Of a stretch of DNA of 64,000 bases, positions 26,014-29,769 are shown in pieces. The translations under genes were made by a program, and so were the position numbers. The notes beneath the pieces were generated by a model that searched no databases, was not told where the DNA came from, and was given only the letters and a program-made list of their open reading frames with translations. Position 1 is the first letter of the stretch. Every line of letters starts with the position of its first letter. This DNA is from a virus (Duplodnaviria > Caudoviricetes): IMG/VR virus record IMGVR_UViG_3300033066_002329, positions 24,944 through 88,943 of that record, one strand, 5' to 3'.

Positions 26014-26043
26014 AAAAAGCGACCTAAATTAGGTCGCTTTTTT
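26012..26043. terminator. Bidirectional terminator
   Basis: AAAAAAGCGACCTA-aat-TAGGTCGCTTTTTT. Confidence 0.85.
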
Positions 26044-26373
26044 ATTTAATGTAGACATTTCTTCTATTGCTTGAAAATTATCATCTATTTTTTTACAAAT
26101 AGCTTTAAAGTTTTTTATAATTTCATCAGAGAATCTAAACCATTCACCTTCAAGTTTATTTCCATCTTCTTCATGAGCTTGAAATGATGAATAACTATTA
26201 TGGATAGCTGCTTCTATTTGAGAAGCTCTATTTGTTTTATAAAAATCAGTAACAAGCAATTTTTTTGCACTGCCAGTTTGCAATTCTTTTAAACGTTTTT
26301 GAGGATTTTTCTTGGTAAAGCCAACCTTACAAACATTTGAGCCTTCTACTTGTATTAAATAAACAAATTTCAC
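26029..26373 (-). CDS. GIY-YIG nuclease (T5orf172/MUG113-like); start probably non-ATG
   Basis: VYLIQ, KVGFT, RLKELQTG, GEWF. Confidence 0.8.
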   Translation of the reverse strand: MKFVYLIQVEGSNVCKVGFTKKNPQKRLKELQTGSAKKLLVTDFYKTNRASQIEAAIHNSYSSFQAHEEDGNKLEGEWFRFSDEIIKNFKAICKKIDDNFQAIEEMSTLNKKAT

Positions 26374-26408
26374 AATTAAATATATAACTTATTTTTTTAA
26401 TAAACAAA

Positions 26409-26825
26409 TTATTGCATACCTGAATTATCAAAATAATATTTATATCCTTCTTCATTATTATCAATTTCTGACATAGGAATTTTATGAGCAATTGATTTTA
26501 TATATGGTATTAACTCTACAATTATTTCATTGTCTTCGGATTCAGTTAATCTATTAATTTCCATATATCCTCTAAGTAATCCTCCATAAATAATATAACA
26601 CCTTTTCCCAGGTATTGTTTTGGGGACTGAACCTACTATAATATCAAGAGTTTGAGAATTAGCTTTTAATTTTATAAAATAAGCTATATATTCAGACCAA
26701 CTTCTATCTTTAGGTAAAGATATAATTATATCTCTATCTTGTAAATCTGTTATTTTTTTAAGGATATCCATATACAATAAATAATATTCAAAAAAACAAA
26801 ACCCCGCTTTACAGCAGGGTTTCAT
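26409..26825 (-). CDS. Hypothetical protein (probable start MDILKK)
   Basis: ORF between TROVE and GIY-YIG. Confidence 0.55.
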   Translation of the reverse strand: MKPCCKAGFCFFEYYLLYMDILKKITDLQDRDIIISLPKDRSWSEYIAYFIKLKANSQTLDIIVGSVPKTIPGKRCYIIYGGLLRGYMEINRLTESEDNEIIVELIPYIKSIAHKIPMSEIDNNEEGYKYYFDNSGMQ

Positions 26826-26843
26826 AAGAATAATATTATTTTA

Positions 26844-28295
26844 TTATAATTCTACACTATTTTTAATTGTATTAGTAAGAATGTTAATATCTTGCTCTGC
26901 AAGTTTCATAAGGTCAAAAATCTTTTCAGAAAATCCAACTAAAAAAATCACCTTATTTCCAACAAATTGAATTGTTGGATTACCTGCTAAATCAAAATTA
27001 TATAAAAATGGATTTGCCCCTGTTTTCTTTTTATAATCATTAAAGCAATATTGACTTGAATTCATTTGACCCCAAGCTTCTCCATCTGATAATATAATCA
27101 AACGGTCATATTTATTTTTTTCTTTATCCATTAATTCAAAAAACTTACTATATTTTGTTCCTCCAAGGTCAATTCCATTAAACTTTTCACTGATAGTAAA
27201 AATACTATCTTTTAAATTAAAGTTTACATAATTAGCAGTATCTCCAAATACAATTACATCAGCATTATTTGATTTTGCTAATACAGCAGCAAATAAACCT
27301 CCAATTTTAGTTGGTTGACCACGCATAGAACCTGAACGGTCATATATTACACAAGTTTTTCCTGGTAATGCTGGAACATTAGAACAAGATATTTCAATAG
27401 CATCTTCTAATGCTGAGATAACTTGTCTCGAATTGCTTCCTCCTACTTTTTGCAATTCCTCAATTGCAGTTACAAATTGAAAAGGTAATATTAAAGACTT
27501 GGAAATTAAATTTTTATCTCTAAGCAAATTACATGCAGCATCTATAGACTCAGGAGATTGAATCATTATATTTCTCAAATTTCTTACAAGAGCTAAATAA
27601 CCAATCTTCTTAGTTTCAATAAGTTCTTTCCAAACTTGAGCCTTTTTTTCATTTTTATCATTACCTGAATTAGACTGTCCTGCCTCAGAAAGTTTTGCCT
27701 CCCATGTATCTGTATTTTTTAAAGTACCATTAATAAGTTCAGCAAGAGCTTTCTTGTTTTTATTTGTTGCTTTAGGATGTACTAAATTAACAATATCAAC
27801 AAGAGAAACTTCATTTCCTTCTCCTTTATATTTTGCCAATTGATATCCATCAAATTTATCAAATGCCTTCGAAAATCCTTTTTTCAGAGAATTTGGTAAA
27901 GCCTTATTTTTATTTTTAATAAAATAATAAGATATAATTTCACTCATATCATCTGGTCTATTAATAATATCTTCAAAGAATTTTTTACTCCATTCTTTAC
28001 CTGACAAGTATTTCGCAACTTCAACTGCAAGTACATGAGTAATAGAACGCATACCAAATGTAGTTCTTGCATATATAGCAGCTTTTGCTGCAAATTTTGG
28101 GTCTACTTTTGTTAGTAATTCAGGAATCCTTTTTAAGGTATCTGTAGACTTTTTATAAAATTGGTCTTGTACAAATGAAGTTAAAAGAATTGACACTAAT
28201 TCTACTTCTGCTGTTTTTTCATATGCTTGACCACCTGCATAATTAACAGCTTCAACTCTCTGTGGAGTTATCTTTTTTGTGTTAAATTTTCCCAT
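26844..28295 (-). CDS. TROVE/Ro60 (Rsr-like) RNA-binding protein with a vWA domain
   Basis: RPDDM, FDGYQLAKY, LVDIVNLVHPK, TWE, YLALVRNLRN, LPFQF, MIDAS DRSGSM. Confidence 0.95.
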   Translation of the reverse strand: MGKFNTKKITPQRVEAVNYAGGQAYEKTAEVELVSILLTSFVQDQFYKKSTDTLKRIPELLTKVDPKFAAKAAIYARTTFGMRSITHVLAVEVAKYLSGKEWSKKFFEDIINRPDDMSEIISYYFIKNKNKALPNSLKKGFSKAFDKFDGYQLAKYKGEGNEVSLVDIVNLVHPKATNKNKKALAELINGTLKNTDTWEAKLSEAGQSNSGNDKNEKKAQVWKELIETKKIGYLALVRNLRNIMIQSPESIDAACNLLRDKNLISKSLILPFQFVTAIEELQKVGGSNSRQVISALEDAIEISCSNVPALPGKTCVIYDRSGSMRGQPTKIGGLFAAVLAKSNNADVIVFGDTANYVNFNLKDSIFTISEKFNGIDLGGTKYSKFFELMDKEKNKYDRLIILSDGEAWGQMNSSQYCFNDYKKKTGANPFLYNFDLAGNPTIQFVGNKVIFLVGFSEKIFDLMKLAEQDINILTNTIKNSVEL

Positions 28296-28327
28296 TTTCT
28301 TTTTTTTAAGGGTTAAACATTTTATGC

Positions 28328-28361
28328 AAAAAAAAAGGACATCATCTTACGACAATATCCC
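28328..28361 (-). terminator. Leader (attenuator) terminator upstream of the TROVE start
   Basis: GGGATATTGTC-GTAA-GATGATGTCCT, 11-bp stem with GNRA loop, ending in a T9 tract 33 nt before the ATG. Confidence 0.85.
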
Positions 28362-28440
28362 ATTCAAACACACTAAAATAAGTTGTATAATTTTATAGCC
28401 TGAAATATTCAGGCACTTCCTTATCTTAGTATTTATTTTT

Positions 28441-28510
28441 ATAGGGATATTGTAAAAAGAGTATTTTGATAAATCTTGGTAATCGAAGTAACTCTTTTAG
28501 TCGCCACTAT
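28441..28510 (-). ncRNA. Y-RNA-like stem in the TROVE leader
   Basis: Terminal helix ATAGTGG/TCCCTAT, bulged C followed by GA, internal loop, second helix AAAAGAGT/ACTCTTTT. Its 3' strand ACAATATCCC is the exact complement of the terminator 5' arm. Confidence 0.65.
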
Positions 28511-28697
28511 TTTTTTACTTTTATAAATAACTAATATTATATATATTTAAAATTTAATAAAACACTTCTCTTAAATCAAATATTTTTATGTTTTTTTTGT
28601 AACTTATTGATTTTCAATGCTAAAATTACTTATTAACTTATATTTTTTTTTCTTTTTACGCAAAAAAACATTTATATTTATAAATAAACAGGTTGAT

Positions 28698-28961
28698 ATG
28701 GAAAACAATAAAGAAGAAACAAAAGACAAAGCAATCAATGAAGAAATAAAAGATACAGAAATCTTTTCATTTAGTTGTCTCGTTAATATTATTTTAGATT
28801 ATTATAGTGAAACTTCTTCTGAAGAAGATTCGTCTGAAGCTTGGAAAAAAGGAACAGAACACGAAGAAAAAGGTGGAGTATCAGTTCCTAATGATGTAGA
28901 TGATTTAGTAAAGAAAGCATTTAAATCTCAATTAAAAAAATTTATAAATAAAAATGTTTAG
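28698..28961 (+). CDS. Hypothetical acidic protein
   Basis: Start re-placed at MENNKEE, downstream of a TATTTATA element. Confidence 0.7.
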   Translation: MENNKEETKDKAINEEIKDTEIFSFSCLVNIILDYYSETSSEEDSSEAWKKGTEHEEKGGVSVPNDVDDLVKKAFKSQLKKFINKNV

Positions 28962-29769
28962 TGATAACAATTTAATATTATTTTTACTTTGTATTATACC
29001 AGTAGTATTTTATTCACTTTTTATTTTTGCTAATTCTCCTTCTTTTTCAATAAGATTAAAGGCTTCTTTCACTTATTTGTATACAGGTTTATTATCAGTT
29101 ACTTTGTTACAATTTATTCATTTTATATTTCCTCATTTACATGATGTATTTTTACAAATTAATGTAGAAAAATTTACAATACAAAATGAGAATTTTAATT
29201 TTGTACAACCTACACTTGGCTCAATCATTCTATTTGCATTTATTCAAGTAGCATTATTTGAAGAACTATCAAAATGGGTAGCTTTTAAATGCGTAAGCTA
29301 TATGCGTGGCAGAAGAAGAAAAAACTTAGACCATCCTTATGCTATAATGTTTTATTCCTCATTAGTAGCAGCAGCTTTTTCTATAGTTGAAAATATTCAA
29401 TATGCTCAACGAGCTATGTCTGGTGAATTTGGAATTGTAGAACCTTCAGATATTTTAACCATAAGAGCTGTTACATCAGTAATTGTTCATATGGCCTGTG
29501 GTTTATTTATGGGTTATTATATGGGTCTGTCCAAAGGTTGCAACAAGCCAAAGGTAATTTTATATAATACAATAGGTATTATATTAGCAACTTTTACGCA
29601 TGGAATCTATGATTTTAATTTAATGAGAACAAATACTGCAAGTGATTTTTTTCATTGCTTCGGAACTGAAATACACATTCCAAGTTTAGTGATAATAAGT
29701 TTCAGCTTATTATCTTGCTATTTAATGTCTTGCTACTTAAAAACTAAAGAGACTACTAATCTTCAGTAA
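28954..29769 (+). CDS. prsW: PrsW-family intramembrane protease
   Basis: LFEELSK, FSIVENIQY, HMACG, HGIYDF motifs in a multi-TM protein. Confidence 0.9.
   Translation: MFSDNNLILFLLCIIPVVFYSLFIFANSPSFSIRLKASFTYLYTGLLSVTLLQFIHFIFPHLHDVFLQINVEKFTIQNENFNFVQPTLGSIILFAFIQVALFEELSKWVAFKCVSYMRGRRRKNLDHPYAIMFYSSLVAAAFSIVENIQYAQRAMSGEFGIVEPSDILTIRAVTSVIVHMACGLFMGYYMGLSKGCNKPKVILYNTIGIILATFTHGIYDFNLMRTNTASDFFHCFGTEIHIPSLVIISFSLLSCYLMSCYLKTKETTNLQ

What the first reader, a model, noticed from the sequence alone, without database searches (positions are those of the whole stretch)
28328..28530. Y-RNA mimic acting as antiterminator: probable Ro60 autoregulatory attenuator
Seen: the TROVE leader holds a 70-nt stem with Y-RNA architecture (terminal helix, bulged C then GA, internal loop, AAAAGAGT/ACTCTTTT helix). 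About 80 nt downstream is an 11-bp GUAA-loop terminator with T9, 33 nt before the ATG. The 3' strand of the Y-like stem (ACAATATCCC, 28444-28453) is a perfect 10-nt complement of the terminator 5' arm (GGGATATTGT, 28352-28361), so the two folds are mutually exclusive. Established: Ro60/Rsr binds the bulged helix of Y RNAs, and bacterial Y RNA genes lie next to rsr. Inference: free Ro60 locks the Y-fold, the terminator forms and a ~190-nt Y-containing RNA is released. When Ro60 is titrated by damaged RNA, antitermination makes more protein. That would make the Y RNA a cis-acting protein-sensing switch.
Basis: partly seen in the sequence, partly recalled or inferred. Interest (0 to 1): 0.86.

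Follow-up and report, generated by a model that had tools for sequence, protein, structure and literature searches.

The report
Y-RNA hairpin wired to Ro60 terminator
In front of a giant phage's Ro60 (TROVE) gene sits a genuine Y-RNA-type hairpin whose 3' strand can pair with the 5' arm of the terminator before the gene; related phages keep this pairing while its sequence changes, so the RNA probably lets Ro60 limit its own synthesis, but no binding or termination experiment has been done.

Summary
The hairpin at 28435-28517 (minus strand) belongs to a large family of Y-RNA-type hairpins that lie upstream of TROVE/Ro60 genes on the same strand. In 47 aligned members, 90% of cells are paired and 12 of 14 pairs show compensatory changes. 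The family has no Rfam model. Its tRNA-bearing relatives hit Rfam YrlA weakly.

An intrinsic terminator (28328-28361) ends 32 nt before the ATG. Its 5' arm is a perfect 10-nt complement of the hairpin's 3' strand (P about 2e-4).

The new result is that this complement is kept in relatives while the sequence changes, in at least seven sequence classes. A 22-cluster derangement test gave 0 of 5000. The three other strand combinations are at background by exact match, so a simple 5'/3' closing helix is disfavoured.

Most likely (about 0.5) this is a protein-sensed attenuator. Ro60 bound to the Y stem would block the antiterminator, so transcription stops and a Y RNA is released. Ro60 binding, the direction of the effect, and the lack of a separate promoter for the gene are all inferred.

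Earlier notes of this scan described the same leader layout in other phages, with feedback untested. Novelty: a new variant of a known kind.

The parts
28435..28517 (-). Y-RNA-type hairpin (short form, no tRNA-like module). Layout: P1, bulged U, P2, internal loop carrying the Ro-type motif, P3, then a conserved loop that starts UACUUCG and ends in an A-rich run.
   Evidence: Covariance model R1 scores it 70 bits, E 2e-11, and it is the only hit in the window. Family alignment A2 shows covariation.
28500..28505 (-). GGCGAC, at the place of the bacterial Y-RNA motif GNCGAA thought to contact Ro60. Five of six positions match.
   Evidence: Sequence. The motif is defined in Chen et al. 2014, PMC4201824. 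In A2 the A at the end of CGA (28501) is invariant; flanking positions are at least 90% conserved.
28444..28453 (-). Segment 2: the 3' side of the Y internal loop, plus P2' and the first base of P1'. It is the proposed partner of the terminator's 5' arm, forming the antiterminator.
   Evidence: Exact 10-nt complement. The duplex is -14.8 kcal/mol.
28362..28440 (-). Middle domain: an irregular long hairpin capped by a GC-rich stem-loop at 28398-28414. It would stack on the segment 2:3 helix.
   Evidence: MFE folds. No Rfam match.
28328..28361 (-). Intrinsic terminator: segment 3 is the 5' arm (28351-28361), then a GUAA loop, segment 4 is the 3' arm (28337-28346), then nine U.
   Evidence: Terminator scan. 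Fold energy -12.3 kcal/mol. Terminator-like hairpins lie upstream of the ATG, mostly 24-60 nt before it, in 102 of 137 related loci.
28306..28320 (-). Conserved motif between the terminator and the start codon. It can be read as a four-codon mini-ORF (M-F-N-P-stop). Its role is unknown.
   Evidence: Sequence. Similar motifs occur in L002, L134 and L050. It is not repeated elsewhere in the window.
26844..28295 (-). Ro60/TROVE gene (483 aa), the presumed regulated gene and the presumed sensor protein.
   Evidence: Pfam TROVE 1.4e-23 and vWA_Ro60 2.5e-07. PDB 9kop and 9l5y (phage phiLo Ro60) at E 1e-18, and 2nvo. The N-terminus matches the family consensus.

Best explanation
The leader is both a phage Y RNA gene and a transcription attenuator for the Ro60 gene behind it. 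Three pairings are conserved and mutually exclusive:
- 1:2, the basal stem of the Y hairpin, which carries the Ro60-type motif.
- 2:3, the Y 3' strand paired with the terminator's 5' arm (the antiterminator).
- 3:4, the terminator.

Proposed mechanism (inferred):
- When free Ro60 binds the nascent Y stem, segment 2 is held or occluded. The terminator then forms, and a roughly 190-nt Y-type RNA is released, possibly already loaded with Ro60.
- When free Ro60 is scarce, because it is bound by the phage's other Y RNAs or by misfolded RNAs, segment 3 invades the weak basal stem. The terminator cannot form and the polymerase reads into the Ro60 gene.

This is the logic of PyrR-type anti-antiterminator control, used for negative autoregulation.

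What is shown: the three pairings, their conservation, and their mutual exclusivity. What is inferred: Ro60 binding, the direction of the effect, and the gene's dependence on read-through.
For: - Y identity. In A2, 47 hairpins are 90.4% paired. The covariation score is 0.565 against 0.235 in shuffles (0 of 500) and 0.08-0.24 in slid controls. Twelve of 14 pairs show compensatory change.
- Association with the gene. All 204 R1 hits across 217 related loci (137 phage/metagenome, 80 bacterial-genome) lie on the gene's strand, and nearly all are upstream of it.
- Link to known Y RNAs. tRNA-bearing relatives with the same 5' strand hit Rfam YrlA at E 1e-6 to 1.4e-3.
- Terminators. They lie mostly 24-60 nt before the ATG in 102 of 137 loci.
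- Coupling. The terminator's 5' arm has an exact complement of 7 nt or more in the Y 3' strand in 41 of 90 loci. It always falls in the P2'/P1' region, and the sequence classes differ, for example the window's AUAUCCC type, a UCUGGUC type, a UCGGUC type and a CUCUGAUU type. L216 adds another class.
- Cluster-level derangement. Own pairs average 4.9 nt against 3.88 nt (0 of 5000). By energy, -7.67 against -5.10 kcal/mol (0 of 2000).
- Specificity. Segments 4:1, 3:1 and 4:2 are at background by exact match.
- Folding. In all 12 representatives, the fold of the transcript up to the terminator loop has 2:3 formed and the Y base opened. The full-length fold has 1:2 plus 3:4 in 11 of 12.
- Window energies. 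In the window, 2:3 (-14.8) beats both the terminator (-12.3) and the basal 1:2 duplex (-4.2).
- Other Y RNAs in the phage. A tRNA-like Y RNA with a near-identical basal stem, and a possible second one beside it, sit in a tRNA array. These are natural competitors for Ro60.
- An independent wiring. In L090 the terminator arm instead complements 9 nt of a Y 5' strand, which gives the same logic by a different route.
- Precedent for binding. Phage Ro60 binds Y-like RNAs encoded upstream of its gene in Thermus phage phiLo (PMC12135203).
Against: - There is no experimental evidence of binding, termination or read-through.
- Coupling is absent or weak in several phage loci (L149, L154, L160, L141). 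Among the five bacterial-genome loci that could be scored it is weak at best, and only 19 of 80 such loci have a terminator there.
- In the commonest class, 250-300 nt carrying a second large Y-like RNA separate segments 2 and 3, so the switch would have to act at long range.
- About 50 coupled loci belong to one related class, so independent support comes from roughly seven classes.
- A weak 1:4 signal appears in the energy test (31 of 2000).
- A promoter for the gene overlapping or downstream of the terminator cannot be excluded, because the host's or phage's promoter type is unknown.
- Ro60 is reported to pry the Y helix apart (text of PMC12135203). If so, binding could free segment 2 and act in the opposite direction.
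Confidence: 0.5

Rival explanations
1. Constitutive ratio-setter. The Y RNA and the Ro60 gene share one promoter. The terminator is simply leaky, and the 2:3 pairing tunes a fixed fraction of read-through, giving many Y RNAs per Ro60 mRNA. No protein is sensed.
For: The terminator sits close to the ATG in most loci. The 2:3 pairing is conserved. Nothing here shows protein dependence. An earlier scan note on another phage reached the read-through reading.
Against: Segment 2 is part of the helix and internal loop that carry the Ro60-type motif. Any Ro60 binding there would therefore be expected to change access to segment 2. A fixed leak could be set by terminator strength alone, without a pairing that tracks the Y stem.
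Confidence: 0.2
2. Structural or maturation helix. The 2:3 pairing is part of the mature fold of the released RNA, possibly with a 1:4 closing helix as a four-way junction isomer. Alternatively, it is a processing stalk flanking the middle domain or the second Y RNA. It does not act during transcription.
For: The full-length MFE of the window RNA keeps 2:3 and pairs the 5' end with the terminator's 3' arm and U tail. In the common class, segments 2 and 3 flank the second Y-like RNA in the way rRNA processing stems flank their RNA. A weak 1:4 signal appears in the energy test.
Against: The 1:4 pairing is at background by exact match, and it is weak in 10 of 12 representatives. The A-run that pairs with the U tail in the window is not seen in relatives. 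In 11 of 12 relatives the full-length MFE has 1:2 plus 3:4, not 2:3. The helices are only 6-10 bp, which is short for RNase III. The Y basal stem that 2:3 destroys is itself supported by covariation.
Confidence: 0.15
3. Same switch, opposite sign or a different sensor. Ro60 binding might open the Y stem and promote read-through (positive feedback). Alternatively, another factor, such as a Y-RNA-binding nuclease or polymerase pausing, decides between the folds.
For: Ro60 is reported to separate the strands of the Y helix and to contact mainly the 5' strand (PMC4201824; PMC12135203). The conserved hairpin loop suggests that a second partner also binds.
Against: Positive feedback on an RNA-binding protein lacks an obvious set point. 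In the window, 7 of the 10 nucleotides of segment 2 lie in the internal loop opposite the motif, where a bound protein would be expected to block access.
Confidence: 0.1
4. Coincidence or shared ancestry. The terminator arm resembles the Y stem by chance or through an old duplication, and the resemblance has no function.
For: The sequence is AT-rich, and many of the coupled loci are related to each other.
Against: P is about 2e-4 in the window. Derangement tests at cluster level gave 0 of 5000 and 0 of 2000. The register and sequence of the complement differ between classes. A duplication would also make segment 3 resemble segment 1, and it does not.
Confidence: 0.05

Closest known systems
Bacterial and phage Y RNAs bound by Ro60/Rsr (YrlA, YrlB, Yrn1/Yrn2; Rfam RF02553; Chen et al. 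2014, PMC4201824; phiLo Yrl1/Yrl2, PMC12135203)
   Same: It is encoded just upstream of the Ro60 gene on the same strand. It has a basal stem with a bulge and an internal loop carrying a CGA-type motif on the 5' strand. Several Y RNAs occur per genome, one type with a tRNA-like module and one a plain long hairpin.
   Different: The window hairpin has no tRNA-like module and gets no Rfam hit. Its loop carries a conserved motif of its own. Its 3' strand is wired to the downstream terminator. The two Y-RNA papers I could read (PMC4201824, PMC12135203) mention neither terminators nor autoregulation.
Protein-dependent transcription attenuation through an anti-antiterminator (for example PyrR on pyr leaders; from my own knowledge)
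   Same: There are three overlapping pairings: a protein-binding hairpin, an antiterminator and a terminator. The protein is proposed to stabilise the first hairpin and so allow termination.
   Different: Here the proposed sensor is the product of the regulated gene. The binding hairpin is itself a functional small RNA that is released on termination. Nothing has been tested biochemically.
Autoregulatory ribosomal-protein leaders that mimic the protein's rRNA site (for example the L20 leader, RF00558; from my own knowledge)
   Same: An RNA-binding protein would repress its own gene by binding a leader copy of its normal RNA ligand. Free protein is sensed through competition with the main ligand.
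   Different: The weak Rfam L20_leader hit (25 bits, gathering score 58.7) covers the middle-domain stem-loop and the terminator and is not a membership signal. The ligand here is a Y RNA, and control would act on termination.

Membership tests
Bacterial/phage Y RNA (Chen et al. 2014) | Encoded within a few kb of the Ro60/rsr gene, usually on the same strand | tested here: met
   The hairpin ends 140 nt upstream of the ATG on the same strand. All 204 family hits in related loci are on the gene's strand.
Bacterial/phage Y RNA (Chen et al. 2014) | A stem carrying the motif GNCGAA(N0-1)G near the 5' end | tested here: inconclusive
   The window has GGCGAC at 28500-28505, matching five of six positions. 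The base after GA varies across the family.
Bacterial/phage Y RNA (Chen et al. 2014) | A conserved secondary structure with a bulged basal helix, supported by covariation | tested here: met
   90.4% of cells paired, 12 of 14 pairs with compensatory changes, and shuffled and slid controls much lower.
Bacterial/phage Y RNA (Chen et al. 2014) | Bound by Ro60 and dependent on it for stability | not testable with these tools
   Needs EMSA or co-purification.
YrlA subfamily (Rfam RF02553) | A tRNA-like module (T arm, acceptor-like hairpin, D arm) and a match to the Rfam model | tested here: not met
   There is no RF02553 hit at E up to 10 in 27800-29200, and the loop has no T or D arm. A Y RNA carrying a tRNA-like module lies elsewhere in the same phage (L163:1501-1626), with a possible second one beside it.
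Protein-sensed transcription attenuator | An intrinsic terminator between the promoter and the regulated ORF | tested here: met
   The promoter itself was not mapped.
Protein-sensed transcription attenuator | An alternative pairing that sequesters the terminator's 5' arm, conserved in relatives | tested here: met
Protein-sensed transcription attenuator | A protein-binding structure that competes with the antiterminator | tested here: inconclusive
   The structural overlap is shown: segment 2 is shared by 1:2 and 2:3. Protein binding is inferred from family membership only.
Protein-sensed transcription attenuator | The downstream gene depends on read-through, with no promoter of its own | tested here: inconclusive
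   Only 32 nt separate the U run from the ATG. The sigma-70-type scan lists no promoter-like site on the gene's strand in that gap, but the relevant promoter type is unknown.

The most novel reading that the evidence does not exclude
In a large group of mostly giant phages, a Y RNA acts in cis as the sensor of free Ro60. The same transcript either ends as a Ro60-loaded Y RNA or continues as Ro60 mRNA, depending on whether Ro60 clamps the Y stem. This would be the first described autoregulatory circuit for any Ro60, and the first cis-regulatory role for a Y RNA.
Probability: 0.45. Interest if true: 0.8.

Novelty: new variant of a known kind. Interest (0 to 1): 0.62.

Why it matters
How cells or phages set the balance between Ro60 and its Y RNAs is not known. 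The two Y-RNA papers I could read (PMC4201824, PMC12135203) mention neither terminators nor autoregulation, and my paper searches turned up no such circuit. A Y stem coupled to the terminator of the Ro60 gene gives a concrete hypothesis that can be tested by mutation: Y RNAs would be not only tethers or gates for Ro60 but also its dosage sensor. It also gives a compact natural example of a small RNA gene that doubles as an attenuator. Finally, it defines a phage Y-RNA hairpin family that has no Rfam model.

Tried and rejected
- Rfam on the region and on the whole window found no Y_RNA or YrlA hit. The only hit was a sub-threshold L20_leader match over the middle-domain stem-loop and terminator, which I rejected as irrelevant.
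- Closing-helix reading. It was suggested by the window's MFE, where the 5' end pairs with the terminator's 3' arm and U tail. I tested it across relatives. It is at background by exact match and only a weak echo by energy. The window's A-run is not conserved.
- Duplication origin of the terminator is rejected, because segment 3 does not resemble segment 1.
- A control using Y RNAs that are not next to Ro60 failed. Most of the 119 pattern matches in viral contigs were chance (only 19 model hits). The real ones sit in tRNA arrays without terminators, so the test could not be made.
A protein-pattern scan and a strict DNA pattern found none in viral contigs.
- The bacterial-genome set shows little of the coupling.
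- A repeated promoter or leader motif search found that TTATTTATAA, just upstream of the hairpin, is not significantly enriched in the window. The AATGTTTAAC motif is unique to this leader.
- My first clustering threshold for the derangement test merged nearly all loci into one cluster and was redone.

Full report
**Setting.** The window is part of an 88.9-kb viral contig, estimated 29% complete, so it comes from a large phage. It carries tRNA genes. The ORF at 26844-28295 (minus strand, 483 aa) is a Ro60 homologue. It matches Pfam TROVE and the Ro60 vWA domain. It also matches the solved Ro60 of Thermus phage phiLo (9kop, 9l5y, E 1e-18) and D. radiodurans Rsr (2nvo). Its N-terminus fits the family consensus, so the leader runs from 28296 upward.

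**Observation.**
- The hairpin has P1 (28507-28510 with 28441-28444), a bulged U28506, and P2 (28504-28505 with 28445-28446).
- Its internal loop has CGACU on the 5' side.
- P3 is an 8-bp helix (28491-28498 with 28455-28462).
- The terminator is 28328-28361, with a GUAA loop and nine U. The U run ends 32 nt before the ATG.
- The 10-nt complement between 28444-28453 and 28352-28361 is exact. It arises in about 2 of 10000 resampled leaders.
- Alone, the hairpin is not unusually stable, so I turned to relatives.

**What the hairpin is.** I fetched 160 loci encoding relatives of the protein from metagenomes and viral contigs, and later 80 more from bacterial genomes. A short motif from the hairpin loop recurs 150-450 nt upstream of the gene, on the gene's strand, in most loci, often twice.

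An alignment of 47 short hairpins that includes the window's copy gives one consensus fold:
- 90.4% of cells are paired.
- The covariation score is 0.565, against 0.235 in shuffles (0 of 500) and 0.08-0.24 in slid controls.
- 12 of 14 pairs show compensatory change.

A covariance model built from the alignment finds the window element at 70 bits, and nothing else in the window. It finds 204 further hits in related loci, all on the gene's strand.

Relatives in which the same 5' strand and loop start are followed by a T arm, an acceptor-like hairpin and a D arm hit Rfam YrlA at E 1e-6 to 1.4e-3, below the gathering score. The 5' strand carries a CGA-type motif at the position of the GNCGAA motif that Chen et al. 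2014 link to Ro60 contact.

So the element is a real phage Y RNA of the plain-hairpin kind, comparable to YrlB-type RNAs. It is not a YrlA, and it has no Rfam family. The same phage also has a tRNA-like Y RNA with a near-identical basal stem, and a possible second one beside it, inside a tRNA array 33 kb away on the contig.

**The terminator link.** Terminator-like hairpins lie upstream of the ATG, mostly 24-60 nt before it, in 102 of 137 distinct loci. Their stem bases are not random. In 41 of 90 scorable loci, the 5' arm has an exact complement of 7 nt or more in the 3' strand of a Y hairpin of the same locus, always in the P2'/P1' region. The sequences differ between classes:
- the window's type (10 nt here; 8, 8 and 7 nt in L002, L134 and L082);
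- a very common UCUGGUC type;
- a UCGGUC type;
- a 9-nt type in L106;
- several further types, including a 9-nt one in L216 that extends to the other side of the shared CCC.

I clustered loci by the Y 3' strand into 22 clusters and deranged the terminators between clusters. Own pairs average 4.9 nt against 3.88 nt (0 of 5000). By duplex energy the figures are -7.67 against -5.10 kcal/mol (0 of 2000).

The three other strand combinations are at background by exact match. The 1:4 combination gives only a weak echo by energy (31 of 2000), which is expected from transitivity. The conserved feature is therefore the pairing of the Y 3' strand with the terminator's 5' arm. It is not a 5'/3' closing helix, and it is not a duplicated stem.

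In L090 the terminator arm instead complements 9 nt of a Y 5' strand. That is a different wiring with the same consequence.

**Mechanism.** Three pairings are each supported by conservation and cannot coexist: the Y basal stem (1:2), the 2:3 helix and the terminator (3:4). That is the anatomy of an attenuator.
- In 12 representatives from different classes, the predicted fold of the transcript up to the terminator loop has 2:3 formed and the Y base opened.
- With the 3' arm added, 11 of 12 switch to 1:2 plus 3:4.
- The window RNA keeps 2:3, because its antiterminator (-14.8 kcal/mol) is stronger than its terminator (-12.3) and its basal Y duplex (-4.2).
- In the window, 7 of the 10 nucleotides of segment 2 lie in the internal loop opposite the Ro-type motif. 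A bound protein would be expected to block exactly the toehold that the antiterminator needs.

Ro60 clamps the Y stem, the terminator forms, and a Y RNA is released. Without free Ro60 the antiterminator wins and Ro60 mRNA is made. The phage's other Y RNAs would compete for Ro60 and set the threshold.

Binding, the sign of the effect, and dependence on read-through are all inferred. Phage Ro60 binding to Y-like RNAs encoded upstream of its gene has been shown only for phiLo.

**Limits and rivals.**
- Coupling is missing in some phage loci and in nearly all bacterial-genome loci, where terminators at this place are rare.
- About 50 coupled loci form one related class.
- In that class, a second Y-like RNA of about 250-300 nt lies between segments 2 and 3.
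- A constitutive leak-setting role (0.2), a role in the mature fold or in processing (0.15), an opposite or different sensor (0.1) and coincidence (0.05) remain open.

**Known or new.** Y RNAs upstream of phage Ro60 genes are known (PMC4201824, PMC12135203). Those two papers mention neither terminators nor autoregulation, and my searches found no paper on such a circuit. The main review was not held.

Earlier notes of this scan described the same leader layout in other phages and left feedback untested. What is added here is the covariation between the Y stem and the terminator, and the four-way control. I class the finding as a new variant of a known kind.

Noticed in passing
G000:C1:19601-19726 (minus), which is L163:1501-1626; also about L163:1330-1495 (minus). 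Both lie outside the window.: The same phage encodes a Y RNA with a tRNA-like module (T arm, acceptor-like hairpin, D-like arm) and a basal stem nearly identical to the leader hairpin's. It sits inside a tRNA array. A second, more divergent candidate follows it directly.
   Followed up: partly
window 28306-28320 (minus): A conserved motif lies between the terminator and the Ro60 start codon. It reads as a four-codon mini-ORF. Similar short ORFs or motifs sit at the same place in L002, L134 and L050. It is not repeated elsewhere in the window.
   Followed up: partly
L001:2620-2920, L016:1180-1440 and many other loci of the common class: A second, much larger Y-like RNA of about 250-300 nt, with its own conserved 5' and 3' strands, lies between the short Y hairpin and the terminator. 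It has no Rfam family. An earlier scan note describes the pair as one RNA of about 390 nt.
   Followed up: partly
L090:1450-1490: The terminator's 5' arm is a 9-nt complement of the 5' strand of the second Y hairpin (6 nt for the other two), not of a 3' strand. This is an alternative wiring with the same logic.
   Followed up: partly
L278:2069-2170: Here the 3' strand of the Y hairpin runs straight into a U run, so the Y stem itself may serve as the terminator.
   Followed up: no
L029, L064, L093, L095, L114, L126, L145, L147 (upstream of the TROVE gene): In the tRNA-like Y RNAs, the conserved loop start forms a 5-bp stem with a 7-nt loop resembling an anticodon arm. The loop triplets differ between phages.
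   Followed up: no
window 26029-26825 (minus): Downstream of the Ro60 gene on the same strand lie a 138-aa ORF with no Pfam match and a 114-aa T5orf172/MUG113-type protein. Whether they belong to the same transcription unit was not examined.
   Followed up: no
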